From: a virus
Lineage: Duplodnaviria > Heunggongvirae > Uroviricota > Caudoviricetes
Direction: 5' to 3' (one strand)
Length of the DNA stretch: 50,364 nt
Virus record (IMG/VR): IMGVR_UViG_2563366831_000011
Span: 1-50,364 of that record
The position numbers and the translations under genes were made by a program. This document shows positions 1-50,364 of this stretch, piece by piece (the stretch's first letter is position 1; each line of letters starts with the position of its first letter). Under the pieces are notes generated by a model that searched no databases, was not told the DNA's origin, and saw nothing but the letters and a program-made list of their open reading frames with translations.

Positions 1-933
1 ATGGACAACGACAAAATTGATCAACACAGCGACGAAATTGAAGTTGAGAGCGAAGAAAAAGAGCGCGGCAAAAAAATAGAAATAGATGAAGATCGACTCC
101 CCTCCCGGGCGATGGCAATTCATGAGCATATCCGCCAGGATGGTGAAAAAGAGCTGGAACGCGACGCAATGGCGCTACTGTGGTCAGCCATTGCGGCGGG
201 TCTGTCGATGGGCGCTTCGCTACTGGCAAAAGGGATATTTCATGTCGAACTGGAAGGAGTGCCAGGCAGCTTCTTACTGGAGAATCTCGGTTATACCTTT
301 GGTTTTATTATCGTCATTATGGCCCGCCAGCAATTATTTACCGAAAACACCGTGACTGCGGTACTACCCGTCATGCAAAAACCGACAATGAGCAACGTCG
401 GCTTACTTATGCGATTATGGGGCGTCGTGCTGCTGGGTAATATTCTCGGGACAGGTATTGCTGCATGGGCATTTGAATATATGCCTATCTTCAATGAAGA
501 AACTCGCGATGCATTTGTCAAAATCGGCATGGATGTGATGAAGAACACCCCCAGCGAGATGTTTGCCAACGCGATCATTTCCGGCTGGCTGATCGCCACT
601 ATGGTTTGGATGTTTCCTGCTGCGGGTGCGGCAAAGATTGTGGTGATTATATTGATGACCTGGCTTATTGCACTGGGTGACACCACCCACATCGTTGTCG
701 GTTCTGTTGAAATCCTCTATCTGGTGTTTAACGGCACGCTGCACTGGAGCGATTTCATCTGGCCCTTCGCACTACCTACTTTAGCGGGGAACATCTGCGG
801 CGGCACCTTTATCTTCGCGTTAATGAGTCATGCACAGATTCGTAACGACATGAGCAACAAGCGTAAAGCAGAAGCACGCCAAAAAGCAGAACGTGCGGAA
901 AACATTAAGAAAAATGATAAAAACCCAGCATAA
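1..933 (+). CDS. yfdC: FNT-family (formate/nitrite transporter-like) inner membrane protein YfdC
   Basis: 310-aa ORF with a polytopic hydrophobic core, an acidic N-terminus and a basic C-tail. Recognised from memory as E. coli YfdC, the gene preceding argW. Confidence 0.85.
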   Translation: MDNDKIDQHSDEIEVESEEKERGKKIEIDEDRLPSRAMAIHEHIRQDGEKELERDAMALLWSAIAAGLSMGASLLAKGIFHVELEGVPGSFLLENLGYTFGFIIVIMARQQLFTENTVTAVLPVMQKPTMSNVGLLMRLWGVVLLGNILGTGIAAWAFEYMPIFNEETRDAFVKIGMDVMKNTPSEMFANAIISGWLIATMVWMFPAAGAAKIVVIILMTWLIALGDTTHIVVGSVEILYLVFNGTLHWSDFIWPFALPTLAGNICGGTFIFALMSHAQIRNDMSNKRKAEARQKAERAENIKKNDKNPA

Positions 934-1008
934 ATGGCGAGGGTTTAAGCAATCGAGCGGCAGCGTACTTACCCCGCAGTCCATTAGCGGGTATACTCAT
1001 GCCGCATT

Positions 1009-1083
1009 GTCCTCTTAGTTAAATGGATATAACGAGCCCCTCCTAAGGGCTAATTGCAGGTTCGATTCCTGCAGGGGACACCA
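1009..1083 (+). tRNA. argW: tRNA-Arg (anticodon CCU), intact, CCA encoded
   Basis: 75 nt. Acceptor stem GTCCTCT/AGGGGAC (one G-U pair). Anticodon arm AGCCC-CTCCTAA-GGGCT gives anticodon CCT. T-arm is GCAGG-TTCGATT-CCTGC. Ends ACCA. Confidence 0.95.
1069..1083. repeat. attL core (CTGCAGGGGACACCA), identical to the 3' end of argW
   Basis: Exact 15-nt copy recurs at 48661-48675. Flanking bases differ on both sides. Confidence 0.85.
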
Positions 1084-1199
1084 TTTATCAGTTCGCTCCC
1101 ATCCGTACCAGTCCGTAAAATCCCCTGAATATCAAGCCTTCCGTAGATTTACAGTTCGTCATGGTTCGCGTCAGATCGTTGACAGCCGCACTACATGAC

Positions 1200-1244
1200 G
1201 GGTAAAAAGTGGATAAAATAATTTTACCCACCGGATTTTTACCC
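1200..1244. promoter_or_regulatory. attL arm / intS upstream region with three GGGTAAAA octamers (candidate arm-type recombinase sites)
   Basis: GGGTAAAA at 1200-1207. Its complement TTTTACCC at 1222-1229 and 1237-1244, abutting the intS ATG. Two more copies lie at the attR side (48582-48589, 48594-48601). Confidence 0.45.
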
Positions 1245-2405
1245 ATGCTCACCGTTAAGCAGATTGAAGCAGCAAAGCCGAAAGAAAAACCATACCGCCT
1301 TCTCGATGGTAATGGACTGTACCTTTATGTCCCTGTATCCGGGAAAAAGGTATGGCAGCTTCGCTACAAGATTGACGGTAAGGAGAAAGTCCTAACCGTA
1401 GGAAAATATCCGCTAATGACTTTGCAGGAGGCAAGGGATAAGGCATGGACTGCGAGGAAAGACATCTCGGTTGGCATCGATCCGGTAAAGGCGAAAAAGG
1501 CTTCGTCTAACAACAATTCATTTAGTGCGATTTACAAGGAATGGTACGAGCACAAGAAGCAAGTCTGGTCAGTAGGCTATGCAAATGAACTTGCAAAAAT
1601 GTTTGATGACGACATTTTACCTATCATCGGCGGCCTTGAAATTCAGGATATTGAGCCGATGCAACTACTGGAAGTAATCCGCAGATTTGAAGATCGCGGT
1701 GCAATGGAGCGAGCCAACAAAGCCCGCAGAAGATGCGGCGAGGTTTTCCGTTACGCTATTGTCACCGGCAGGGCTAAATATAACCCGGCACCTGACCTTG
1801 CTGACGCCATGAAAGGATACCGCAAGAAGAACTTCCCGTTTCTTCCTGCAGACCAGATCCCGGCATTCAACAAAGCACTGGCAACATTTTCAGGAAGTAT
1901 CGTATCGCTCATTGCGACCAAAGTTTTACGCTACACAGCCCTAAGAACGAAAGAGCTTCGTTCCATGCTATGGAAGAACGTCGATTTTGAAAACAGGATT
2001 ATCACCATCGACGCCAGCGTGATGAAGGGACGCAAGATTCATGTGGTCCCGATGTCGGACCAGGTGGTTGAACTTCTCACTACGCTAAGCTCCATCACTA
2101 AACCAGTATCAGAGTTTGTTTTTGCCGGACGCAACGATAAGAAGAAGCCAATCTGCGAGAACGCGGTATTGCTTGTGATCAAACAAATCGGCTATGAGGG
2201 TCTGGAAAGCGGTCACGGATTCAGGCATGAATTCAGCACGATTATGAACGAGCACGAATGGCCTGCTGATGCTATTGAAGTGCAACTTGCACATGCCAAC
2301 GGCGGATCTGTGCGCGGAATTTACAACCATGCTCAGTATCTCGATAAGCGCAGAGAAATGATGCAGTGGTGGGCTGATTACATCGATGGTCGTGCAGGAG
2401 TGTAA
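1245..2405 (+). CDS. intS: Tyrosine integrase IntS (KplE1/CPS-53, Sf6/HK620 type)
   Basis: ORF-track product from MLTVKQIEAAKPKEKPYRLLDGNGLYLYV... matches my recollection of E. coli IntS. The C-terminal catalytic region contains HGFRHEF and a later Y (GIYNHAQY). I chose the start at the ATG at 1245 rather than the GTG at 1209. Confidence 0.9.
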   Translation: MLTVKQIEAAKPKEKPYRLLDGNGLYLYVPVSGKKVWQLRYKIDGKEKVLTVGKYPLMTLQEARDKAWTARKDISVGIDPVKAKKASSNNNSFSAIYKEWYEHKKQVWSVGYANELAKMFDDDILPIIGGLEIQDIEPMQLLEVIRRFEDRGAMERANKARRRCGEVFRYAIVTGRAKYNPAPDLADAMKGYRKKNFPFLPADQIPAFNKALATFSGSIVSLIATKVLRYTALRTKELRSMLWKNVDFENRIITIDASVMKGRKIHVVPMSDQVVELLTTLSSITKPVSEFVFAGRNDKKKPICENAVLLVIKQIGYEGLESGHGFRHEFSTIMNEHEWPADAIEVQLAHANGGSVRGIYNHAQYLDKRREMMQWWADYIDGRAGV

Positions 2406-2409
2406 GCCA

Positions 2410-3441
2410 TTACGCGAATTCTTCCACGATCGCCATGCCAGTAGCACCATCACCACCGGTAAATGCCGCACCGGTAAACCCAAGGTCATACGCGCCACCA
2501 CCACCGGATCCGGGAGCTGCGCCAGCAATACCGGCCTGAGAACCCGCCCGGCCACCGCCGCCAAAATACGACGCCCCGCCGTTGCCCGTCAGAAGGCTTG
2601 AGCCTGTCTGTCCATCTGAGCCGGTACCACCGTTGATCCTGATATCTCCGGTCGCCGCCGTACCTCCGGCGCCGCCGGCGGTATTGGACACGCCTGACTT
2701 CACGCCGCCTTTCCCGCCAGGAGCTGAGAACAGGCTGGCAAACGAGGTGGCCCCACCATCTGCACCACTTACTGCGCCAACTCCGCCCTTACCACCCTTG
2801 CCGACAGTAATCGCATAAGAACTGGCAGCAGACAGGTCAACCCATACGATAATGGTCGCGCCCGCGCCGCCGCCAGCACCGGAGAAGGTTTCTGTATTGT
2901 TGTAGGCCTGGCAGCCGCCACCGCCGCCACCGGCACCTGTCAACGTTACTTTTGCATAACGGGCCAGAGGAGATCGCGTATAGGTTCCGTTTGCATAGAA
3001 AGCTTTTGGAGCGCCAAGTGAACGCCCGACAAAACCAGAGGAATCAGATATTCCGAGGTTATAACGGGCTTCATTTACCGCATCCTCACCGGCATCTTTA
3101 ATTTCTGACAGGTTATTGCTGATCTGCAGGAACGATAACAATGATCCGGCTGTCATTAAATTCGCGACAATGTCATTCGTTGACCATACGCGTGCCGTTG
3201 TTCCTTCCTGACCACGAATTACTGTCATCACGTCACCGGATACAGACGTTACGTGCATAATTTCAGAAATTGTTTTCGTGGCCGCGTCGGTTATCGTTAA
3301 TTTGAAATAACTCTGCCCAGATACAGGAGAAGGGAATAAAGCCCCCGCTCCAGTTCCCACGGTAATAACGGTAGCGGACGCACTAATACCCGCAGCGAGA
3401 ACACTCTTTGCGTTATTATTGGCTAATAGCTTCAGCGCCAT
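2410..3441 (-). CDS. Tail fibre protein 2 with glycine-rich C-terminal module
   Basis: 343 aa. The N-terminal domain (ITVGTGAGALFPSP...YFKLTITD...VTSVSGDVMTVIRGQEGT) is typical of short fibre N-termini. The C-terminal roughly 190 aa is Gly-rich and paralogous to the C-terminus of the 431-aa fibre at 6914-8209. Confidence 0.7.
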   Translation of the reverse strand: MALKLLANNNAKSVLAAGISASATVITVGTGAGALFPSPVSGQSYFKLTITDAATKTISEIMHVTSVSGDVMTVIRGQEGTTARVWSTNDIVANLMTAGSLLSFLQISNNLSEIKDAGEDAVNEARYNLGISDSSGFVGRSLGAPKAFYANGTYTRSPLARYAKVTLTGAGGGGGGCQAYNNTETFSGAGGGAGATIIVWVDLSAASSYAITVGKGGKGGVGAVSGADGGATSFASLFSAPGGKGGVKSGVSNTAGGAGGTAATGDIRINGGTGSDGQTGSSLLTGNGGASYFGGGGRAGSQAGIAGAAPGSGGGGAYDLGFTGAAFTGGDGATGMAIVEEFA

Positions 3442-10030: not shown

Positions 10031-10387
10031 TCACAGGGTGACGCTGGAATCCAGGCCGTTGGTATCCACGATCGCAATAACGCCGGTAGTGCGGCGCGTA
10101 TCGCGGTTGTTAATCAGCGTCGGCTCAGCTCGCGCGATATAGCTCATCCGCAACGCTTCAACCTGAAGCGCGGCCGCCATGGCGCCAGTGCTGGCCTTAA
10201 CGTTAAGCAGCTCTTTGTAATTAACGCCGGTGTCTTTTTCGTAAATGCACTCGCCGCGTATAGCCAGGCATGCCGTCGCTACGTCCTGAGCGCAGGCGTA
10301 GGGGTTTTCAACCGTGGCGATATTACCCAGCTCATCAAGGACAAGATCCCAGGTGTCGGGATCGAGTTTGAGAGAGATTGTTTTCAT
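10031..10387 (-). CDS. Small baseplate protein (GPW/gp25-sized)
   Basis: 118-aa ORF directly upstream of the J-like gene. Confidence 0.5.
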   Translation of the reverse strand: MKTISLKLDPDTWDLVLDELGNIATVENPYACAQDVATACLAIRGECIYEKDTGVNYKELLNVKASTGAMAAALQVEALRMSYIARAEPTLINNRDTRRTTGVIAIVDTNGLDSSVTL

Positions 10388-10400
10388 GGATTTCGCCCAT

Positions 10401-10423
10401 AAAAAAACCCAGCCGAAGCTGGG
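10401..10423 (-). terminator. Rho-independent terminator after ant
   Basis: Minus strand reads CCCAGC-TTCG-GCTGGG followed by T7. Confidence 0.75.
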
Positions 10424-10442
10424 TTTGTTAAGTTGTCAATTG

Positions 10443-11447
10443 TCAGTAGCGATGCAGTGAAGGCGGCAACTCTTTGTTCTTAAGTCTTACCCATGCGGAA
10501 AGATTCGTTGGTCCGTCTGGCTCATTGATATCAACATCTCGTGTGTGGTTGATTAAAACGTCTCTCGCCATTCCGATAACATACGAAAACTCATGACCGT
10601 AGTCGTAGCATCTTCCGGAATAGTTCGATTGAATTTGTTTTAATGCCGGATACAGTTCGCGGAATAATGCCTGTGATCGGTTAGCATAATCCCACAACCA
10701 TACAAGGCTGTTTGCTTCTTTTGCAGAAAGCTCGTTGGTGCTCTTCTCTTGTTTGCCAATGAACTCACCTTCAAGTGGAACTCGAGCTGCAAGTGACAGT
10801 GCTTCGGTAAACTGCTCCTCACTGATTTCTTTGTACGAACAGCCAAAATGAGATTTCAGTGACGACCACATAGTGATCATCGCCTTCGCCTGTTTTTCTT
10901 TTGGCAGAGACTGACCGCGACTCATGACGAGTTGTTTAATAGCTTCCTGCTGTTCAGTGGTGATTTTACCCGGCAACACCTTTTTAGCTTTGCGCGGGTT
11001 AACCACATGGCCTTTAGTCCAGTACTCGTAGAGCACATCGTCACACTCTTCCTGATACTGGATTACCTTGTCGCGGATTTCAGGGCGGACTTTGTTTGGT
11101 TGAATGCTTGAAAGCCAAGCCGCAAATTTACGAAAGGCAAGACATGTCATTAACTGTTTACCGCCAGCAGAAGGTATTTCGATTTCCGAAATACCTTTGG
11201 CAAACCTCTGTTTTAACTTAACAAATTGAGCAGCCCAAACCATCCCCATACCTTCAACAACAGGCTTCATAGGAACATAAGGCTCATTGTTAATTCCAAC
11301 CAAAAAGAGATTTGTTCCGTGGAATGGAACATTGATTGTGCGATCTGCAATTGCTAAACTAGTCATATCAGTTTTCTCGTGGTTAACTGGTAATTTAGAA
11401 GCCTCAATGGTTGCAGCCATTGAGGCTTCGCTGTTTTTAGCGACCAT
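10443..11447 (-). CDS. ant: Antirepressor Ant (P22 Ant-type N- and C-domains)
   Basis: 334 aa from [13 protein letters not shown]. The segment [29 protein letters not shown]...LKQRFAKG resembles the P22 antirepressor N-domain. The start overlaps the arc stop (ATGGTCGCTAA). Confidence 0.75.
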
Positions 11448-11610
11448 TCGCCACCTCTTCCCTAACACCTTTTGCCAGCAAACGAACAATTGCAGAGTTC
11501 AGAGATATACAGTCCATTTCCGCCAGGCGGCGAAGGTCTTCATTCAGCCGTGATGGAAGGCGAAGGTTGAGTTTGATATTTTTGCGCTCAGTGAAAAGTG
11601 TATCTTGCAT
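11437..11610 (-). CDS. arc: Arc-like ribbon-helix-helix repressor (57 aa; below the ORF-track cutoff)
   Basis: My own translation: [57 protein letters not shown]. It has the RHH pattern (beta-strand KLNLRLP plus two helices), an AGGAG SD, and sits immediately upstream of ant as in P22 immI. Confidence 0.7.
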
Positions 11611-11717
11611 TATCTAATCTCCTTTATTTGGTGCCAAAGTGACACCATGAAGGCCATGATGCCACCATTGAAATCGTATGGCAATATGGCACCATGATTT
11701 TTTTTGAGAGATTTGCA
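11611..11717. promoter_or_regulatory. Divergent promoter/operator region of the immI-like module
   Basis: Near-palindrome TGGTGCCAAAGTGACACCA (11629-11647). Repeated TG(G/A/C)CACCA motifs at 11640-11647, 11660-11667 and 11687-11694. The region lies between the divergent arc and mnt-like genes. Confidence 0.5.
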
Positions 11718-12038
11718 ATGGCCGAAAAACAAGTAAAAGACTACGACAAGTTCAACCTCCGTTTTCCTGACGGAATGCGAGATGCTATAGCTGAACGAGC
11801 CAAACGAAACGGGCGCTCTATGAACTCAGAGATTGTTCAGATACTGGAAGATGCCTTGAATGCAGAAAATACACTCGGGGAAATAGCAGATAAAATTAAC
11901 AGCGTCTCGGTTCCGCTAAATGTTGATGCGCTAGTTCAACTTCAAGCCCAGGTTATCGCCATGCAAAAAGAAATACAGGAAAAGTTCAGAGAGCAGAACG
12001 AAAAGTTGAGAGAACTGCTAAACAAAAAACCCACCTGA
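11718..12038 (+). CDS. Mnt-like repressor with Arc-type RHH N-terminal domain
   Basis: 106 aa from MAEKQVKDYDKFNLRFPDGMRDAIAERAKRNGRSMNSEIVQILEDAL, an Arc-domain pattern, with a coiled-coil C-terminus. It is divergent from arc-ant as mnt is in P22. Confidence 0.65.
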   Translation: MAEKQVKDYDKFNLRFPDGMRDAIAERAKRNGRSMNSEIVQILEDALNAENTLGEIADKINSVSVPLNVDALVQLQAQVIAMQKEIQEKFREQNEKLRELLNKKPT

Positions 12039-12049
12039 CGGTGGGTTTT
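12024..12049. terminator. Bidirectional rho-independent terminator shared by the convergent mnt-like and lipoprotein genes
   Basis: A6-CCCACC-TGAC-GGTGGG-T4. There are U-tracts on both strands. Confidence 0.75.
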
Positions 12050-12051
12050 GG

Positions 12052-12705
12052 CTAGTACATCGACTTGATCTGCGTGGTACCGTCCGGAACGCCGTACTTG
12101 CTCATTTTCCAACAGGCCTCAGCAACCTGGATTATTTGGTATCTCATTTCAGGGCCAATTCCTTCTGTTAAGCTAATGTGCTGTTTCATAAACTCAAGGG
12201 TCACGCCTTCCCTTTGGGCTGCCCCCGCCACCCGGCACATATGCCTTACCCCGGCGTCAGAATCAGCCTGCTGGTATGGGTATCGGGCCATTAGAGAATA
12301 GTAGACATTATTTAAAGTGTAAGACGCAGCATCAATCTCACGCTTGGCCATACACTCCTTACTAGCCTGACACTCAGCTTCTTTCTGTGCTGCAAATGCT
12401 TCGTTTTCTTTTCTTTCTTTTTCTCTTTTTTTATCCATCATGGAATCGAAGACATTGGCATATTTATTGTAGTAGCAGACGTTATCTTTAAGGCATTCGC
12501 TTGTGTTTTGCTCAGGAAGGTTTAATCCAGTAACGTTTTTATATATCTCTCTTAGATCGTCTACAGACTGAGTACCACCTGAATTTGTTTTGAATTTTTG
12601 CTTATCAAAGCCATGCTCTTTTTGGTATTGGATAGCCTCAGTAGGAGATAAAGCACAGCTTGATAATAAAAATACCAAGGGGATAAAATATATTTTACTT
12701 ACCAT
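12052..12705 (-). CDS. Lipoprotein of unknown function (moron; at the sieA-equivalent position next to immI)
   Basis: 217 aa. The signal peptide and lipobox are MVSKIYFIPLVFLLSSC. The gene is visibly AT-richer than its neighbours and ends at the bidirectional terminator. Confidence 0.75.
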   Translation of the reverse strand: MVSKIYFIPLVFLLSSCALSPTEAIQYQKEHGFDKQKFKTNSGGTQSVDDLREIYKNVTGLNLPEQNTSECLKDNVCYYNKYANVFDSMMDKKREKERKENEAFAAQKEAECQASKECMAKREIDAASYTLNNVYYSLMARYPYQQADSDAGVRHMCRVAGAAQREGVTLEFMKQHISLTEGIGPEMRYQIIQVAEACWKMSKYGVPDGTTQIKSMY

Positions 12706-12706
12706 T

Positions 12707-13294
12707 TCACGGCTCCAGGGGTTCAGTTCGGCTTCCTCCTGATACTACCCCACCATGAGTATGCCCATCAACGATAGAACCGTCGACAAGCTCAAGCTGC
12801 CCGTTTGGATGGACTTTCAGGCCGTTGATGTTAACCACTCCAGGGCTCTGTATGTTTATTCCGCTTCCTGTAAACTCAGCGAACTCCGTGGGTTCATCGT
12901 TCAAACTAGCGATAGCAGTGATGTAAACAGCATCCGAGTATGAATGGCGCCGCTGAGTTGGCGGTGGTCCACTTTGCCTTGACGCTCTGACATTGGTTGT
13001 GTCTTTGTCACAGGCGATTACCAGTCCAATATCGCCAATGCGGGGAGTCATTTTTACAGCGCTGTTCCCAGCCTGATACCGAATGAAGGGGATGTCATAT
13101 ACCTCCTGACATTTAATCTCCCCCCCGGAAACGTTCGCGCCGCTCACAAGAGGTAGCACAGTCATAACGCCATCACCAACATCTTTAACCAGAACAATAT
13201 CTGCAAAAACATTGCCCTTTGATGCCGTGGCTATAAGGGACAAGATCGCGTTACCCTGACAGGAGATATCAGAAGCTTTTTGGTTAGTTGCCAT
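12707..13294 (-). CDS. Baseplate central spike / assembly protein V-like (Mu gp45 / P2 gpV type)
   Basis: 195 aa from MATNQKASD. It has an OB-fold-like N-half, and the C-terminus GSIVDGHTHGG is reminiscent of spike tips. The start was chosen at 13294, overlapping the upstream stop. Confidence 0.55.
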   Translation of the reverse strand: MATNQKASDISCQGNAILSLIATASKGNVFADIVLVKDVGDGVMTVLPLVSGANVSGGEIKCQEVYDIPFIRYQAGNSAVKMTPRIGDIGLVIACDKDTTNVRASRQSGPPPTQRRHSYSDAVYITAIASLNDEPTEFAEFTGSGINIQSPGVVNINGLKVHPNGQLELVDGSIVDGHTHGGVVSGGSRTEPLEP

Positions 13295-14153
13295 TGCTTT
13301 CCCCTCCGATGACAGATGCCGGAGATGCCACAACAAACGTCTCCCAAAGCCCACCAGGCACTTTACAGGACAGATAGTGGGTAGTCCCCGCCTGCACCAC
13401 CCACTCGCCGCTAGCGTGTGGCAAGTCTGTTTTCAGGATGATCTTCGTATTCAATTTTAGCGCCGGTGAATAAATGCACCTAAAGTTAATCCCCATCTCA
13501 TAAAATATTGGATACCCAATAAGTCCATGCTCTGGCGAAATTAACGGAACAACTGAATCCGACGGTGTTTTGCCTGTATAAATTGTGACAGTGCCAAAAT
13601 CTATATCAACAGATATGTCATGCGCTGCCGCAATTTTTAATATTTGGATTATTGCGTTGTCATCGAAATACGGATTCCGATGCGTCGCTTTGACGTCGAC
13701 ATTGATGAATTTCAGGCCAACTTTAAAGGCAAGAGCACGAATCATATCAGCAACATCAGCATCGCCGCGAATGGACGTAGGCTCGCAGGGGATCAGGCGC
13801 TCCCTGCCGGCGGCCGCCGCGGTTATCTCAATCGGTGCGTCCGGCATCTGGTTCAGGTTAATCCTGGCAGATGTTATTGACCCGGAAAAAACACGGGTGT
13901 CGCCGGCGTAAACGACAATTGAGTTCTGTGCATACGCGATTATCTTTTGCGCGTTGGTCGTCAACTTTGACATGTTTTCCAGGGAAAGTCCCCAGAGGCT
14001 AAGTTCAAGAATCGTTCCGGTAGCGCCGCCAAATGCTGATATAGCCGCCTCACACTTGAAACCTTTAACCGTCAAGGTGTCGCCAATGTCGCCGTCAAAC
14101 GTACCGTTGGCCAGCGTGAACGATACGGTAAGCTCTCTCTCCTTGTAACTCAT
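13284..14153 (-). CDS. Tail/baseplate hub-like structural protein
   Basis: 289-aa ORF in the post-tape-measure block. The call rests on position only. Confidence 0.45.
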   Translation of the reverse strand: MSYKERELTVSFTLANGTFDGDIGDTLTVKGFKCEAAISAFGGATGTILELSLWGLSLENMSKLTTNAQKIIAYAQNSIVVYAGDTRVFSGSITSARINLNQMPDAPIEITAAAAGRERLIPCEPTSIRGDADVADMIRALAFKVGLKFINVDVKATHRNPYFDDNAIIQILKIAAAHDISVDIDFGTVTIYTGKTPSDSVVPLISPEHGLIGYPIFYEMGINFRCIYSPALKLNTKIILKTDLPHASGEWVVQAGTTHYLSCKVPGGLWETFVVASPASVIGGESNGN

Positions 14154-17402: not shown

Positions 17403-17879
17403 CTAACTTGCGGTGGCTGCTACAAAAGCGATATGGAGTTTGAAGGCTTCGATTTTCAGGCGCGACCAGGTGCTGATTTCTTCGATCTGACCTTCGTCAA
17501 CAAGCGCTGTTTCGATACCATTACCGCCGAGGAATTTCACGCAGCCAAGCAACTCATCAAGCAGAGGCTTTGACTGTGCGAACGGAACTTTAGCCAGTGA
17601 AGTGATACCCCACTGAGCGAGTCCGGCCATACCGCTGGCCATCACGCTTTCGTACAGCTCGCGAGCTTCTGCGTTATCCTCGGCTGGGGCCGGCGCCACC
17701 GCAGCACCGATGGCCATCATCATATTGTCGGGAACGGTAACGCCGGCGCCAATCACGGCACACGCCAGGCGGATCGCCCACTCTTCGGCCTTTCTCGCCG
17801 GCATTTCGGTGATTTTGAACTGCTTACCCTTGTCACGGTTATCTGCTTCAACCGTGAATACGATGCTTTTACGAGCCAT
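17403..17879 (-). CDS. Tail assembly chaperone
   Basis: 158-aa acidic protein between the tube gene and the tape measure. A -1 frame stays open for roughly 70 further codons down to 17179 (see findings). Confidence 0.55.
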   Translation of the reverse strand: MARKSIVFTVEADNRDKGKQFKITEMPARKAEEWAIRLACAVIGAGVTVPDNMMMAIGAAVAPAPAEDNAEARELYESVMASGMAGLAQWGITSLAKVPFAQSKPLLDELLGCVKFLGGNGIETALVDEGQIEEISTWSRLKIEAFKLHIAFVAATAS

Positions 17880-17906
17880 TTTTGTTTCCTGAATGAGTTA
17901 TCTGGC

Positions 17907-17957
17907 AATAAATAAGCCCACCGTAGTGGGCCATTCAAAAACCACGAATTTGTGGTT
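17907..17957 (-). terminator. Two tandem rho-independent terminators after rha copy A
   Basis: Minus strand reads AACCAC-AAATTC-GTGGTT-TTTG, then GCCCAC-TACG-GTGGGC-TTATTTATT. Confidence 0.65.
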
Positions 17958-17958
17958 T

Positions 17959-18516
17959 TCATGATTCGGTAAGCGCACCAGGAAAACCGGGCAATGCCAA
18001 CTGACCTTGCTTGTCCAGTTGCTCAATGCGTGAAAGTAGCTGTGGCTTCTTCTCTTTCCCCCACCGGCGCAACAGACGACCAGACATACTGGCAACATCC
18101 TTCTCTTTAAGGAACTCCAGCATGACGGCGTTACGCTCTTCTTCAAACTGGCGCCGCCCAACCTGAAGCATCGCGTACATCCAGTTGAAGGCGTTGATGT
18201 AGGCGATCTTGATACGCATCGCCTCTTTTTTGGTGTAGGACATAACCAGAAGCATCAATCCATCTTTGCGGAGGCGATAGAACTTCTGCGGCTTTCCGTT
18301 CTGCAACTCATTGTTTTTATAGCAAACCTCAAAATTGAGTTTTGTATCGAACTCTTCCGGGCATGCCTTAATAGTCTTTTCGATATCACGAATGACGTTG
18401 TCAGGACGTTTCCCAAATGCCTTCGCCACCATAAACGAGTCAGTTACCGGGTCGTTGTCAGCAACAAAAATGAGGTCACGGAAATCAAGTCCGTTAATAA
18501 CTGTTGGGTATGACAT
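17959..18516 (-). CDS. rha: Rha-family phage regulatory protein (copy A), inserted in the tail operon
   Basis: 185 aa. VTDSFMVAKAFGKRPDNVIRDIEK...KFYRLRKDGLMLLVMSYTKKEAMRIKIAYINAFNWM is the pRha-domain pattern. It is a paralogue of 31312-31836. Confidence 0.75.
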   Translation of the reverse strand: MSYPTVINGLDFRDLIFVADNDPVTDSFMVAKAFGKRPDNVIRDIEKTIKACPEEFDTKLNFEVCYKNNELQNGKPQKFYRLRKDGLMLLVMSYTKKEAMRIKIAYINAFNWMYAMLQVGRRQFEEERNAVMLEFLKEKDVASMSGRLLRRWGKEKKPQLLSRIEQLDKQGQLALPGFPGALTES

Positions 18517-32034: not shown

Positions 32035-32472
32035 TTATTTCAGGCATTGCGCCCTGATGTATTCCTGCAGGTAGTTGACCTGTGCGGTTATCTTGTCGAT
32101 TCCACTTCGGAGACGGTAATAATTGAGTTCAGCATCTGCTGTAAGTCTTGGGCTTTCTCCATCGCCCATGCTGCTGGCTCTGGTCGTTGATTTTGCACAG
32201 GTGGCGGCGACTTGCAGGCGCTTACGCCCAGAAGAAACATCAGCACGGAGACTTTCGATAGTCGCGTTAGCATCAGCAAGCTCCTTTGTATATCTGGCGT
32301 CGAGTTCTGCTACGTCACGTTGACGCTTCTGCATGTCAGCGATGATGGATGTGGCTTTGTCGCGCTGGGCTTTGTAGGCGATGGCGTTATCACGGTAATG
32401 ATTAACAGCCCATAACAGGCAGACGATGATGCAGATAACCAGAGCGGAGATAATCGCGGTGACTCTGCTCAT
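32035..32472 (-). CDS. Rz: i-spanin Rz
   Basis: 145 aa with an N-terminal TM segment and a coiled coil. It follows the endolysin gene and resembles P22 gp15 / lambda Rz. Confidence 0.85.
32088..32279 (-). CDS. Rz1: o-spanin Rz1 (embedded, +1 frame within Rz)
   Basis: It has a lipobox (LLGVSAC) followed by a Pro-rich segment [16 protein letters not shown]. The precise start is uncertain. Confidence 0.7.
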
Positions 32473-32945
32473 GCCTCAATCTCTCTGACCGTTCCGCCTG
32501 CTTCTTTGAATTTTGAAATCAGACTGTCAGCCTTATGCTCGAACTGACCATAACCAGCGCCCGGCAATGAAGCCCAGATATTGCTGCAACGGTCGATTGC
32601 CTGACGAATATCACCGCGGTCAATCATCGGTAAAGCGCCACGCTCTTTAATCTGTTGCAGTGCCACAGCGTCCTGGCTTTTCGGAGAGAAGTCTTTCAGG
32701 CCAAGCTGCTTGCGGTAGGCATCCCACCAACGGGAAAGAAGCTGGTAGCGTCCGGCGGCTGTTGATTTGAGTTTGGGGTTTAGCGTGACAAGTTTGCGAG
32801 GGTGATCGGAGTAATCAGTGAATAGCTCTCCGCCAACAATGACGTCATAACCATGATTTCTGGTTTTCTGACGTCCGTTATCAGTTCCCTCTGACCACGC
32901 CAGCATATCGAGGAACGCCTTACGTTGATTATTGATTTCCACCAT
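32469..32945 (-). CDS. R: Endolysin, lambda R-type lytic transglycosylase
   Basis: 158 aa. [39 protein letters not shown] matches lambda R as I recall it. Confidence 0.9.
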
Positions 32946-33252
32946 CTTCTACTCCGGCTTTTTTAGCAGCGAAGCGTTTGATAAGCGAACCAATCGAGTC
33001 AGTACCGATGTAGCCGATGAACACGCTCGTTATATAAGCGAGATTGCTACTTAGTCCGGCGAAGTCGAGAAGGTCACGAATGAACCAGGCGATAATGGCG
33101 CACATCGTTGCGTCGATTACTGTTTTTGTAAACGCACCGCCATTATATCTGCCGCGAAGGTACGCCATTGCAAACGCAAGGATTGCCCCGATGCCTTGTT
33201 CCTTTGCCGCGAGAATGGCGGCTAACAGGTCATGTTTTTCTGGCATCTTCAT
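32929..33252 (-). CDS. S: Holin, lambda S (dual-start MKM motif)
   Basis: 107 aa. [39 protein letters not shown] matches lambda S107/S105. Confidence 0.9.
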
Positions 33253-48386: not shown

Positions 48387-48587
48387 ATGCAACACGAACT
48401 ACAGCCTGATTCACTGGTTGATTTGAAATTCATCATGGCCGATACTGGCTTCGGTAAAACCTTCATCTACGACCGGATTAAGTCCGGCGACCTGCCAAAA
48501 GCCAAAGTTATCCACGGACGAGCAAGATGGTTATATCGTGACCATTGTGAATTCAAAAATAAGCTCTTAAGCCGCGCTAATGGGTAA
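48387..48587 (+). CDS. torI: TorI: KplE1-type excisionase (recombination directionality factor) and Tor response-regulator inhibitor
   Basis: 66 aa. MQHELQPDSLVDLKFIMADTGFGKTFIYDRIKSGDLPKAKVIHGRARWLYRDHCEFKNKLLSRANG matches E. coli TorI as I recall it (AlpA/Xis-type winged helix). Confidence 0.85.
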   Translation: MQHELQPDSLVDLKFIMADTGFGKTFIYDRIKSGDLPKAKVIHGRARWLYRDHCEFKNKLLSRANG

Positions 48588-48601
48588 AATAGCGGGTAAA
48601 A
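48582..48601. promoter_or_regulatory. Two direct GGGTAAAA octamers at the attR arm
   Basis: Copies at 48582-48589 and 48594-48601. The first overlaps the torI stop codon. The same octamer occurs three times at attL. Confidence 0.45.
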
Positions 48602-48660
48602 TATTTCTCACATCTAAAAAATATCATTCCAATCAACCCCCTGCCGCGCCAAGTAGATGT

Positions 48661-48675
48661 CTGCAGGGGACACCA
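48661..48675. repeat. attR core (CTGCAGGGGACACCA)
   Basis: Exact copy of 1069-1083. This is the displaced original 3' end of argW. Confidence 0.85.
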
Positions 48676-49116
48676 GATACCCTTCAAACGAAATCTACCT
48701 TCACCCCGTAAAAGATGGGTTTGGCAGCACACTTGCCTTATATCTACTCATTTTTACTGCAACAGGTTGAAATCTCAGCACTGTCAGAAAGCGCTGATGA
48801 CTAAACAGCCCTGGGCCGGGCGATGTAACCATCACACAGAATCCTGATAGCGAAATATGGCGTGACTCGATACTTCACTCCGCAATGCATTCCTTGATGA
48901 ATTCGCAGGACCGTGATACACGGGACAGGTCACTGAATGACGACAATGTCCTGGAAATCAGCGAACCGCGCATCTGAAGTACATTTGAGCGACTGTACCA
49001 GAACATGAATGAGGCGTTTGGATTAGGCGATTATTAGCAGGGCTAAGCATTTTACTATTATTATTTTCCGGTTGAGGGATATAGAGCTATCGACAACAAC
49101 CGGAAAAAGTTTACGT

Positions 49117-50364
49117 CTATATTGCTGAAGGTACAGGCGTTTCCATAACTATTTGCTCGCGTTTTTTACTCAAGAAGAAAATGCCAAATAGCAACATCAG
49201 GCAGACAATACCCGAAATTGCGAAGAAAACTGTCTGGTAGCCTGCGTGGTCAAAGAGTATCCCAGTCGGCGTTGAAAGCAGCACAATCCCAAGCGAACTG
49301 GCAATTTGAAAACCAATCAGAAAGATCGTCGACGACAGGCGCTTATCAAAGTTTGCCACGCTGTATTTGAAGACGGATATGACACAAAGTGGAACCTCAA
49401 TGGCATGTAACAACTTCACTAATGAAATAATCCAGGGGTTAACGAACAGCGCGCAGGAAAGGATACGCAACGCCATAATCACAACTCCGATAAGTAATGC
49501 ATTTTTTGGCCCTACCCGATTCACAAAGAAAGGAATAATCGCCATGCACAGCGCTTCGAGTACCACCTGGAATGAGTTGAGATAACCATACAGGCGCGTT
49601 CCTACATCGTGTGATTCGAATAAACCTGCATAAAAGACAGGAAAAAGTTGTTGATCAAAAATGTTATAGAAAGACCACGTCCCCACAATAAATATGACGA
49701 AAACCCAGAAGTTTCGATCCTTGAAAACTGCGATAAAATCCTCTTTTTTTACCCCTCCCGCATCTGCCGCTACGCACTGGTGATCCTTATCTTTAAAACG
49801 CATGTTGATCATCATAAATACAGCGCCAAATAGCGAGACCAACCAGAAGTTGATATGGGGACTGATACTAAAAAATATGCCGGCAAAGAACGCGCCAATA
49901 GCATAGCCAAAAGATCCCCAGGCGCGCGCTGTTCCATATTCGAAATGAAAATTTCGCGCCATTTTTTCGGTGAAGCTATCAAGCAAACCGCATCCCGCCA
50001 GATACCCCAAGCCAAAAAATAGCGCCCCCAGAATTAGACCTACAGAAAAATTGCTTTGCAGTAACGGTTCATAAACGTAAATCATAAACGGTCCGGTCAA
50101 GACCAGGATGAAACTCATACACCAGATGAGCGGTTTCTTCAGACCGAGTTTATCCTGAACGATGCCGTAGAACATCATAAATAGAATGCTGGTAAACTGG
50201 TTGACCGAATAAAGTGTACCTAATTCCGTCCCTGTCAACCCTAGATGTCCTTTCAGCCAAATAGCGTATAACGACCACCACAGCGACCAGGAAATAAAAA
50301 AGAGAAATGAGTAACTGGATGCAAAACGATAGTACGCATTTCTGAATGGAATATTCAGTGCCAT
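49117..50364 (-). CDS. cscB: Sucrose:H+ symporter CscB (LacY/oligosaccharide:H+ symporter family)
   Basis: 415 aa and complete, with its ATG at the window edge. MALNIPFRNAYYRFASSYSFLFFISWSLWWSLYAIWLKGHLGL... matches E. coli CscB as I recall it. The csc locus is known to lie next to argW. Confidence 0.9.
   Translation of the reverse strand: MALNIPFRNAYYRFASSYSFLFFISWSLWWSLYAIWLKGHLGLTGTELGTLYSVNQFTSILFMMFYGIVQDKLGLKKPLIWCMSFILVLTGPFMIYVYEPLLQSNFSVGLILGALFFGLGYLAGCGLLDSFTEKMARNFHFEYGTARAWGSFGYAIGAFFAGIFFSISPHINFWLVSLFGAVFMMINMRFKDKDHQCVAADAGGVKKEDFIAVFKDRNFWVFVIFIVGTWSFYNIFDQQLFPVFYAGLFESHDVGTRLYGYLNSFQVVLEALCMAIIPFFVNRVGPKNALLIGVVIMALRILSCALFVNPWIISLVKLLHAIEVPLCVISVFKYSVANFDKRLSSTIFLIGFQIASSLGIVLLSTPTGILFDHAGYQTVFFAISGIVCLMLLFGIFFLSKKREQIVMETPVPSAI

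What the first reader, a model, noticed from the sequence alone, without database searches (positions are those of the whole stretch)
12052..12705. A low-GC lipoprotein gene occupies the sieA-equivalent position next to immI: candidate superinfection-exclusion or envelope-modifying moron
Seen in the sequence: a 217-aa ORF has a classical lipoprotein signal (MVSKIYFIPLVFLLSSC). It has several Cys residues and a charged KREKERKENEAFAAQKEAE helix. Its composition is clearly AT-richer than the flanking tail genes. It starts 2 nt after the spike gene ends and stops at a bidirectional terminator shared with the mnt-like gene. I recognise no family.

Established knowledge: prophage lipoproteins such as Llp (T5) and Cor block receptors, and P22 sieA lies beside immI.

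Inference: this is a lysogenic-conversion or exclusion factor. I did not find a promoter that would express it in the lysogen.
Basis: partly seen in the sequence, partly recalled or inferred. Interest (0 to 1): 0.55.

Follow-up and report, generated by a model that had tools for sequence, protein, structure and literature searches.

The report
Orphan prophage lipoprotein after the spike gene
A dispensable prophage gene sitting directly after the tail-spike gene encodes an exported, lipid-anchored protein of an uncharacterised family with a highly variable front half; it is a good but untested candidate for a factor that blocks other phages at the cell envelope.

Summary
The ORF is real: 12052-12705 (-), 217 aa, with a lipobox (LSSC, Cys17) and low GC (42%; N-terminal half 34%). 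It abuts the spike gene, and a terminator hairpin shared with the mnt-like gene starts 3 nt after its stop codon. It belongs to a small uncharacterised family (phrog_26209; about 47 clusters at 50% identity among 1.84 billion proteins). Fifty of 54 full-length members have a lipobox, and six Cys are conserved in three pairs. The AlphaFold model is confident (pLDDT 88) and all-alpha, with no PDB or Pfam relative. Only the signal peptide aligns with T5 Llp, and nothing aligns with P22 SieA.

The gene is dispensable cargo. Close relatives carry other exported or membrane proteins in the same slot. The constant neighbour is the spike gene (or another tail gene), on the late strand, with the RBS inside the spike's last codons. 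immI follows in only 12 of 33 related loci, and P22 sieA lies on the opposite strand with its own promoter.

The N-terminal domain falls into five allele classes (25-79% identity). These are shuffled independently of near-identical baseplate genes.

Best reading: a late-expressed envelope factor for exclusion or receptor masking. The function was not tested, and expression in the lysogen is unresolved.

The parts
12052..12705 (-). Lipoprotein gene (217 aa plus stop). Member of uncharacterised family phrog_26209.
   Evidence: ORF; phrog_26209 match at E = 7e-148; no Pfam, NCBIfam or PADLOC hit; homologues at 55-94% identity in Klebsiella and Raoultella.
12655..12705 (-). Signal peptide with lipobox: residues 1-17, lipobox L14-S-S-C17 at 12655-12666, Ala at +2.
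   Evidence: Rule-based lipobox test is met, and 50 of 54 full-length family members meet it. No member has Asp at +2. Cys17 is invariant in the 37-sequence alignment.
12385..12654 (-). Variable N-terminal domain (residues 18-107), 34% GC over the N-terminal half of the gene. Carries the C71/C77 pair and the start of the long charged helix.
   Evidence: Mean pairwise dN is 0.41, and dS is saturated in 373 of 528 pairs. Five allele classes are 25-79% identical. GC.
12055..12384 (-). Conserved C-terminal helical domain (residues 108-217), 49.5% GC over the C-terminal half of the gene. Carries the C112/C118 and C157/C198 pairs.
   Evidence: Mean dN is 0.069. R154, C157, C198 and W199 are invariant across the family. 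This domain alone makes up the 157-aa lipoproteins of L071/L073.
12713..12716 (-). GGAG ribosome-binding site of the lipoprotein gene, inside the last codons (Leu-Glu-Pro) of the spike gene, 7 nt before the ATG.
   Evidence: Read from the sequence. GGAGCC is present at the corresponding place in all 19 distinct upstream sequences once the 2-6 nt register shifts between them are allowed for, including loci where a remnant of the spike 3' end has been duplicated.
12707..13294 (-). Baseplate central spike gene (195 aa in homologues; the ORF extends to a GTG at 13354). GpV-type N-domain and apex motif.
   Evidence: Weak Pfam hits to PF18352 and the Apex motif PF18946. Called as 195 aa in relatives. 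The stop codon lies 1 nt before the lipoprotein ATG.
12026..12049 (.). Terminator hairpin between the lipoprotein gene and the convergent mnt-like gene. Also the mosaic junction to Stx-phage-like immI DNA.
   Evidence: Window 11400-12045 is 99.4% identical to Stx phages and the identity stops here.
11694..12038 (+). Mnt-like Arc-family repressor gene (immI). A neighbour, not a conserved partner.
   Evidence: PF03869 at E = 1.8e-20. Present after the lipoprotein gene in 12 of 33 loci.
10443..11610 (-). arc-like gene (11437-11610) and ant antirepressor gene (10443-11489). A sub-threshold sar-like antisense RNA lies at 11366-11432 (+).
   Evidence: Pfam Arc, P22_AR_N and P22_AR_C. Rfam sar match at 29.5 bits, below the gathering score of 43.
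10405..10426 (-). Conserved terminator that forms the right-hand border of the cargo slot, just upstream of the gp25-like gene.
   Evidence: A near-identical hairpin follows the lipoprotein gene in immI-less loci and follows the alternative cargo in ST15-VIM1phi2.1.
10031..10387 (-). gp25-like sheath-initiator / wedge gene, where the baseplate operon resumes.
   Evidence: phrog_120 at E = 5e-29. It is 84-100% identical across related loci (98-100% in all but the divergent L038-L042).

Best explanation
Shown:
- The gene is an accessory cassette lodged in a cargo slot of the baseplate operon of a Klebsiella-type temperate myovirus integrated at argW of an E. coli chromosome.
- It encodes a lipoprotein precursor. 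By the lipobox rule, Cys17 would be lipid-modified.

Inferred about the protein:
- Ala at +2 predicts Lol sorting to the outer membrane, with the protein facing the periplasm.
- The mature 200-aa protein is all-alpha.
- It is probably held by three disulfides: C71-C77, C112-C118 and C157-C198.
- It has a hypervariable membrane-proximal N-terminal domain and a conserved C-terminal domain.

Inferred about expression:
- Its ribosome-binding site lies in the last codons of the spike gene, and its start abuts the spike stop.
- It should therefore be made at least together with the late tail genes.
- Whether it is also made in the lysogen is unresolved.

Most likely function (inference):
- It acts at the envelope against phage entry. 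It could mask or alter a receptor, or jam the periplasmic step of tail penetration.
- This would exclude related phages and/or stop progeny being wasted on lysing cells and debris.
- The variable N-domain would set specificity.
- This works like T5 Llp, Cor and the mEpimmI Lpp proteins, but the protein is not homologous to any of them.
For: Lipoprotein and periplasm:
- The lipobox is conserved in 50 of 54 full-length members, and none has Asp at +2.
- Cys pairs are lost together: P0020 lacks C71 and C77, and P0049 lacks C112 and C118.
- There is no other hydrophobic segment.

Dispensable cargo:
- Relatives with 93-100% identical baseplate genes lack the gene.
- In the same slot they carry a TM/zinc-ribbon protein, a Sec-signal 262-aa protein or a Sec-signal protein of about 118 aa.

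Coupling to tail genes:
- The start lies within -4 to +8 nt of the spike stop in 29 of 33 loci.
- The RBS lies in the spike coding sequence.
- In four other phage lineages the family again sits on the tail-gene strand: after a spike (L071/L073, L081), after the tape-measure-like gene (L080), or between the wedge and tail-fibre genes (Yersinia phage type).

Arms-race signature:
- N-domain dN is 0.41, against 0.015-0.065 for flanking genes.
- Five allele classes are combined freely with the spike, fibre and receptor-binding-protein types.
- GC is 34% in the variable half.

Precedent:
- Lipoproteins encoded in structural gene clusters give receptor-type-specific exclusion in mEpimmI phages (PMC11893012).
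- T5 llp lies next to the receptor-binding gene oad.
- Exclusion proteins protect progeny, the 'anti-Kronos' idea (bioRxiv 10.1101/2024.03.05.583538).
Against: - There are no functional data of any kind.
- No convincing sigma-70 promoter was found for lysogenic expression. The best candidates are 8-9 of 12 matches inside spike coding sequence, and their conservation can be explained by the apex motif.
- The N-domain class is not tightly linked to the phage's own fibre or receptor-binding type. N3 pairs with F2 in 6 of 7 loci, but N1, N4 and N5 are mixed, and relatedness confounds this. A strict block of the phage's own receptor would predict tighter linkage.
- The dN/dS ratio of the N-domain is about 0.24 in unsaturated pairs, so positive selection is not demonstrated.
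Confidence: 0.5

Rival explanations
1. It is a lysogenic-conversion factor that benefits the host rather than acting on phages. Examples would be Bor/TraT-like serum resistance, envelope stress tolerance or adhesion. It would be expressed from a weak constitutive promoter inside the end of the spike gene.
For: - It is an exported lipoprotein with foreign GC followed by a terminator, which is the classical moron anatomy.
- A weak promoter-like element (TTGATG, 18 nt spacer, TAGTAT, about 40 nt upstream of the ATG) is retained even in loci where only a remnant of the spike 3' end precedes the gene.
Against: - There is no similarity to Bor, TraT, Lom or any Pfam family.
- The promoter-like element scores only 8-9 of 12 and overlaps the conserved apex-motif codons.
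- Five deeply diverged N-domain alleles reshuffled among near-identical prophages fit phage-phage conflict better than a housekeeping host benefit.
- The family was found only inside tail modules in the contexts examined.
Confidence: 0.15
2. It is a late lytic-cycle helper with no exclusion role. It would be a periplasmic or outer-membrane lipoprotein made with the tail genes that conditions the envelope for lysis or virion release.
For: - It is translationally coupled to a late structural gene and sits on the late strand in all five lineages examined.
- No independent promoter was found.
Against: - The prophage has its own lysis cassette with a holin and an Rz spanin elsewhere (window 32035-33252).
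- The gene is dispensable, since induced or isolated relatives lack it.
- Allele hypervariability is not expected for a helper acting on conserved host envelope components.
Confidence: 0.15
3. It is a structural or assembly component of the baseplate, for example a spike-associated protein.
For: It lies between the spike and the gp25-like genes, abutting the spike gene.
Against: - A conserved lipobox signal peptide and three probable disulfides place it outside the cytoplasm, where tails assemble.
- It is absent from closely related phages that form virions, such as RCIP0114 from sewage and ST15-VIM1phi2.1.
- In other lineages it sits at different places in the tail module.
Confidence: 0.03

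Closest known systems
T5 Llp and Cor (phi80, N15, HK022, T1): receptor-blocking outer-membrane lipoproteins
   Same: - It is a phage-encoded lipoprotein with a classical lipobox.
- It is encoded in or next to the tail / receptor-binding module. T5 llp is adjacent to oad.
- It is non-structural.
- It is expected to act from the periplasmic side of the outer membrane.
   Different: - The mature part shows no homology; hhalign aligns only the signal peptide.
- The mature protein is about 200 aa with two all-alpha domains and six Cys, whereas mature Llp is 61 aa.
- T5 llp has its own annotated promoter, divergent from oad. This gene is coupled to the spike gene on the late strand.
- No receptor is known.
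Lpp exclusion lipoproteins of mEpimmI coliphages (PMC11893012)
   Same: - The lipoprotein genes lie inside the structural gene cluster.
- They come in several sequence types.
- Those types exclude phages according to the receptor used.
   Different: - mEpimmI phages are not related to this prophage.
- Their function was shown by experiment; this one's was not.
P22 SieA
   Same: In this window the gene occupies the place between the last tail or ejection gene and mnt-arc-ant, as sieA does in P22.
   Different: - SieA is not a lipoprotein and shows no BLASTP alignment.
- sieA is on the mnt strand with its own promoter. This gene is on the late strand and convergent with mnt.
- The immI neighbourhood is present in only 12 of 33 related loci.
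Ltp of Streptococcus phage TP-J34 and T4 Spackle: exclusion proteins that act on the incoming tail device
   Same: - Both are exported helical proteins, and Ltp is a lipoprotein.
- They block entry after adsorption by binding the tape-measure protein (Ltp) or the spike lysozyme (Spackle).
- Here the gene travels with the spike gene or the tape-measure / transglycosylase gene.
   Different: - One of 37 family members has a chance-level Pfam T4_Spackle hit at E = 0.11.
- The genomic positions and expression timing of Ltp and Spackle differ.
HK97 gp15 and other tail-operon morons
   Same: It is a dispensable envelope-protein gene inserted among tail genes, of foreign GC and followed by a terminator.
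   Different: - From my own knowledge, gp15 is an inner-membrane protein with its own promoter.
- Here no own promoter was found, and the start is coupled to the upstream gene.

Membership tests
Bacterial lipoproteins (Lgt/LspA substrates) | N-terminal signal peptide with a positive n-region, a hydrophobic h-region and the lipobox [LVI][ASTVI][GAS]C at residues 15-35 | tested here: met
   MVSK-IYFIPLVFL-LSSC, with Cys17. The PS51257-type pattern is matched in the window protein and in 50 of 54 full-length relatives.
Bacterial lipoproteins (Lgt/LspA substrates) | Actual lipid modification and cleavage, and membrane localisation | not testable with these tools
   This needs globomycin or palmitate labelling and fractionation. 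Ala at +2 and the absence of Asp at +2 in the family only predict outer-membrane sorting.
phrog_26209 / this uncharacterised lipoprotein family | Full-length profile match, with conserved Cys pairs and the R154/C157/C198/W199 core | tested here: met
   phrog_26209 matches at E = 7e-148 over residues 1-217. A profile search found 47 cluster representatives. Invariant columns are listed.
T5 Llp / Cor receptor-blocking lipoproteins | Homology of the mature polypeptide (about 60-80 aa) | tested here: not met
   hhalign of the family profile against T5 Llp aligns only residues 1-24, which is the signal peptide. No PHROG other than 26209 matched at E <= 0.01. The mature protein is 200 aa.
T5 Llp / Cor receptor-blocking lipoproteins | Binds and inactivates the phage's own outer-membrane receptor | not testable with these tools
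   The receptor is unknown. The N-domain class is only loosely associated with fibre type.
P22 SieA | Sequence homology and an inner-membrane (TM) protein | tested here: not met
   BLASTP gives no alignment at E <= 100. There is no TM segment beyond the signal peptide.
P22 SieA | Own promoter, transcribed with or like mnt in the lysogen, beside immI | tested here: not met
   The gene is on the opposite strand to mnt. No promoter scoring 9 of 12 or better lies upstream. immI is present in 12 of 33 loci.
Moron (autonomous promoter-gene-terminator cassette in a late operon) | Foreign base composition, dispensability, and a terminator downstream | tested here: met
   GC is 42% (34% in the N-terminal half) against 50-56% for flanking genes. 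The gene is absent from close relatives. Terminators are shown.
Moron (autonomous promoter-gene-terminator cassette in a late operon) | Own promoter active in the lysogen | tested here: inconclusive
   Only 8-9 of 12 sigma-70-like matches lie within the spike 3' coding sequence. RNA data are needed.
o-spanin (Rz1-type lysis lipoprotein) | Small, Pro-rich outer-membrane lipoprotein encoded with or within the i-spanin gene in the lysis cassette | tested here: not met
   It is 217 aa and lies in the tail module. The window has a separate holin and Rz at 32035-33252.
Ltp (TP-J34) / T4 Spackle entry blockers | Fold similarity to the solved structures | tested here: not met
   [not shown]

The most novel reading that the evidence does not exclude
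The family could be a new class of Gram-negative entry blocker. In this reading it is a periplasmic, outer-membrane-tethered two-domain lipoprotein. Its conserved C-terminal domain would dock onto a conserved part of the contractile-tail penetration device: the spike apex or the transglycosylase-bearing tape-measure protein. Its hypervariable N-domain would set which incoming phages are stopped. This would make it a functional analogue of Ltp or Spackle, co-inherited with the spike gene. Made late in infection, it would also protect progeny from futile ejection into lysing siblings.
Probability: 0.15. Interest if true: 0.65.

Novelty: new variant of a known kind. Interest (0 to 1): 0.4.

Why it matters
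- If the protein excludes phages, it would define a new and structurally orphan family of exclusion lipoproteins. It is widespread in Klebsiella, Raoultella and Yersinia prophages and occasional in E. coli. That is relevant to host-range prediction and to phage therapy against Klebsiella.
- The five recombining N-domain alleles on a constant C-domain offer a natural swap series for mapping specificity.
- The slot after the spike gene always carries an exported or membrane protein. It is therefore a useful place to mine for envelope-acting phage-defence or conversion genes.

Tried and rejected
Searches that found nothing informative:
- Pfam, NCBIfam and PADLOC scans of the protein and two relatives found no family.
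- A Pfam scan of 37 family members gave only the generic lipid-attachment motif (5 members) and chance-level hits, including one T4_Spackle hit at E = 0.11.
- PDB sequence profile searches found nothing.
- Rfam found nothing in or beside the gene apart from terminator-like fragments.
- No paper in the library mentions the family. The Yersinia phage paper (PMC9224151) has no proteomics or comment on the homologue.

Searches that failed or were limited:
- The species-representative genome scan found only two Raoultella loci.

Readings considered and rejected:
- Spanin: rejected, because a separate lysis cassette is present.
- Structural protein: rejected, because the protein is exported and the gene is dispensable.
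- Linkage of the lipoprotein gene and immI as a unit: rejected as a rule. Each occurs in the slot without the other. The pairing does recur in two Yersinia-type loci and near L081.

Tests with ambiguous results:
- Covariation of the N-domain class with spike, fibre and receptor-binding types gave no tight link.
- dN/dS gave no evidence of ratios above 1, because most pairs are saturated.

Full report
**1. The observation**

The ORF at 12052-12705 (-) encodes 217 aa starting MVSKIYFIPLVFLLSSC.

- The N-terminus meets the PROSITE-type lipoprotein rule: Lys4, an uncharged hydrophobic core, and the lipobox L-S-S-C with Cys17. Ala follows the Cys.
- No other hydrophobic segment exists.
- The gene is 42% GC, against 50% for the spike gene and 56% for the gp25-like gene.
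- The drop is confined to the N-terminal half: 34% there against 49.5% in the C-terminal half.
- The spike stop codon (12709-12707) is separated by one base from the ATG (12705).
- A GGAG at 12716-12713, inside the last spike codons, sits 7 nt before the ATG.
- The hairpin at 12026-12049 starts 3 nt after the lipoprotein gene's stop codon (12052-12054) and overlaps the end of the convergent mnt-like gene (stop at 12036-12038). It folds far better than shuffled sequence on both strands.

The protein does belong to a described but uncharacterised family, phrog_26209 (E = 7e-148).

**2. Setting**

- The window ends are E. coli chromosome. One end carries yfdC, tRNA-Arg and intS; the other carries torI and an MFS transporter. 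Both are 99.8-100% identical to E. coli genomes. The element is therefore a prophage at argW.
- Its tail and head genes are 91-95% identical to temperate Klebsiella myoviruses: ST899-OXA48phi17.1, ST15-VIM1phi2.1, RCIP0114 and others. The baseplate is E217-like.
- The lipoprotein gene is absent from all 5,426 complete E. coli genomes, even at low stringency.
- The identical protein is nevertheless on 183 public contigs, including E. coli, and is always named 'hypothetical'.
- The immI segment 11400-12045 is 99.4% identical to Stx phages. That identity ends at the shared terminator.

**3. The protein family**

- A word-indexed search found 18 relatives (55-94% identity), all from Klebsiella or Raoultella.
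- An exhaustive profile search of 1.84 billion cluster representatives found only 47, nearly all 200-245 aa.
- Fifty of 54 full-length members have a lipobox, and none has Asp at +2.
- Six further Cys form three local pairs. Where a Cys is missing, its partner is missing too: P0020 lacks C71 and C77, and P0049 lacks C112 and C118. This argues for disulfides and hence an oxidising, periplasmic location.
- AlphaFold2 with 16 sequences gives a confident all-alpha model (pLDDT 88, pTM 0.56). It includes a 40-residue helix (residues 75-114) that contains the charged stretch.
- Pfam, NCBIfam, PADLOC and PDB sequence searches are empty.
- T5 Llp aligns only over the signal peptide. P22 SieA does not align at all.

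**4. Comparative anatomy**

I compared 33 non-redundant loci of the same prophage type.

- The gene starts within -4 to +8 nt of the spike stop in 29 loci.
- In the other four, a 149-aa reverse-strand gene has been inserted. A duplicated remnant of the spike 3' end, including the GGAG, still precedes the lipoprotein gene.
- Downstream, 17 loci go straight, after 65-66 nt, to the gp25-like gene; in the loci read (L006, L010) this spacer holds a terminator. Twelve loci have mnt/ant. Four have other inserts.
- The same terminator bounds the slot in the window (10405-10426) and in relatives without the gene.

Relatives lacking the lipoprotein carry other genes right after the spike:
- a TM plus zinc-ribbon protein in ST15-VIM1phi2.1 (unannotated there) and in the E. 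coli AMR2684 prophage;
- a 262-aa protein with a Sec signal in RCIP0114;
- a protein of about 118 aa with a Sec signal in ST899-OXA48phi17.1.

The slot is therefore a hotspot for envelope-directed cargo, and the lipoprotein is dispensable.

In more distant phages the family is again inside the tail module and on the tail-gene strand:
- after a spike with an apex motif (L071/L073, where a 157-aa form has only the C-terminal domain; also L081);
- after the tape-measure-like gene (L080);
- between the wedge and tail-fibre genes in Yersinia vB_YenM_29.18-type phages. In two of those loci an Arc plus Ant module follows it.

**5. Evolution**

- Flanking baseplate genes are 93-100% identical in most of these loci (lower only in the divergent L016, L029 and L038-L042), while the lipoprotein ranges from 55 to 100%.
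- Mean pairwise dN is 0.41 in residues 18-107. It is 0.069 in residues 108-217 and 0.015-0.065 in the spike, hub, gp25-like and J genes.
- dS of the N-domain is saturated in 373 of 528 pairs, so these are old allele classes and not recent substitutions. The unsaturated ratio is about 0.24.
- Five N-domain classes (25-79% identical) are combined with one main C-domain class. They show no tight link to spike, fibre or receptor-binding-protein types. N3, the window's class, goes with the 431-aa glycine-rich fibre in 6 of 7 loci, but relatedness confounds this.

**6. Expression**

- No promoter scoring 9 of 12 or better lies upstream in the window.
- A weak element (TTGATG, 18 nt spacer, TAGTAT) lies about 40 nt upstream within the apex-motif codons. 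It is retained in the duplicated remnants. Its conservation can be explained by coding constraint.
- The embedded RBS and the abutting stop and start argue for co-expression with the late tail genes.
- Because terminators lie within the operon, late transcription presumably reads through them, as in P22. That last step is inference.

**7. Interpretation**

- Shown: it is an exported lipoprotein family. It is dispensable cargo, coupled to tail genes, with a hypervariable N-domain and an orphan fold.
- Inferred: outer-membrane anchoring, disulfides, late expression, and a role in blocking phage entry or masking a receptor.
- Precedents: lipoproteins in structural clusters exclude phages in a receptor-type-specific way in mEpimmI phages (PMC11893012). 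T5 llp lies beside the receptor-binding gene. Exclusion proteins protect progeny (bioRxiv 10.1101/2024.03.05.583538).
P22 sieA is on the mnt strand with its own promoter. immI is an independent, frequently absent co-tenant of the slot.

**8. Verdict**

This is a real, well-delimited accessory gene of an uncharacterised family. It is a reasonable candidate for a new, non-homologous kind of exclusion lipoprotein. The function and the lysogenic expression are untested. Interest is moderate.

Noticed in passing
window 1-2500 and 48500-50364: The window is an E. coli chromosome with a prophage at the argW site. yfdC, tRNA-Arg and intS lie on one side; torI and an MFS transporter lie on the other. 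The prophage's structural genes are of a Klebsiella myovirus type, so it is a cross-genus mosaic.
   Followed up: partly
L004 9165-9543 (-), L001 5598-5978 (-), L005 8232-9020 (-), L003 6184-6585 (-): In relatives without the lipoprotein, the slot after the spike gene holds other exported or membrane proteins. These are a TM plus zinc-ribbon protein (unannotated in ST15-VIM1phi2.1), a 262-aa Sec-signal protein and a Sec-signal protein of about 118 aa. The slot is a hotspot for envelope-directed cargo.
   Followed up: partly
window 11400-12045: The immI segment (mnt-like gene, arc, and the start of ant) is 99.4% identical to Stx1/Stx2-converting phages of E. coli O157. The identity stops exactly at the shared terminator, which marks a recent recombination junction.
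   Followed up: partly
window 11366-11432 (+): A sub-threshold Rfam match to the P22 sar antisense RNA (29.5 bits, gathering score 43, E = 0.004) lies at the arc/ant junction. It coincides with a 14-bp-stem terminator-like hairpin at 11398-11429.
   Followed up: no
L006/L007/L008/L037 7319-8000: A 149-aa reverse-strand gene with no Pfam hit is inserted between the spike and lipoprotein genes. About 45-75 nt of the spike 3' end is duplicated upstream of the lipoprotein gene, which shows where cassette recombination occurs.
   Followed up: partly
window 17403-18516 (-); L006 1024-2565: Rha-family or KilA-N/P63C genes and a 158-aa ORF sit between the tail-tube gene and the tape-measure / transglycosylase gene in this phage group. 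This is a second variable cargo slot inside the tail operon.
   Followed up: no
L046 7510-8151 and L047 7455-8102 (Raoultella sp. BIGb0138): One genome carries two prophages of this type. Going by the IMG/VR loci L038 and L039, which appear to be the same two prophages, each has a different allele of the lipoprotein (67% and 62% identical to the window protein).
   Followed up: no
window 12660-12689 (+): A promoter-like site scoring 10 of 12 (TTGATA, 18 nt spacer, TAAAAT) lies inside the AT-rich 5' end of the lipoprotein gene, pointing antisense into the spike gene. It is probably a chance match in AT-rich DNA.
   Followed up: no
L004 613-2100 (-): Klebsiella phage ST15-VIM1phi2.1 carries a retron-type reverse transcriptase just beyond its tail-fibre genes, where the window has different genes.
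   Followed up: no
L070 8389-9874, L077 8383-9919, L081 10027-11312: Arc-like and Ant/KilA-like (immI-type) modules recur immediately downstream of the lipoprotein gene in unrelated tail-module positions of other phage lineages. Either immI modules favour the same insertion points, or they sometimes travel with the lipoprotein gene.
   Followed up: partly
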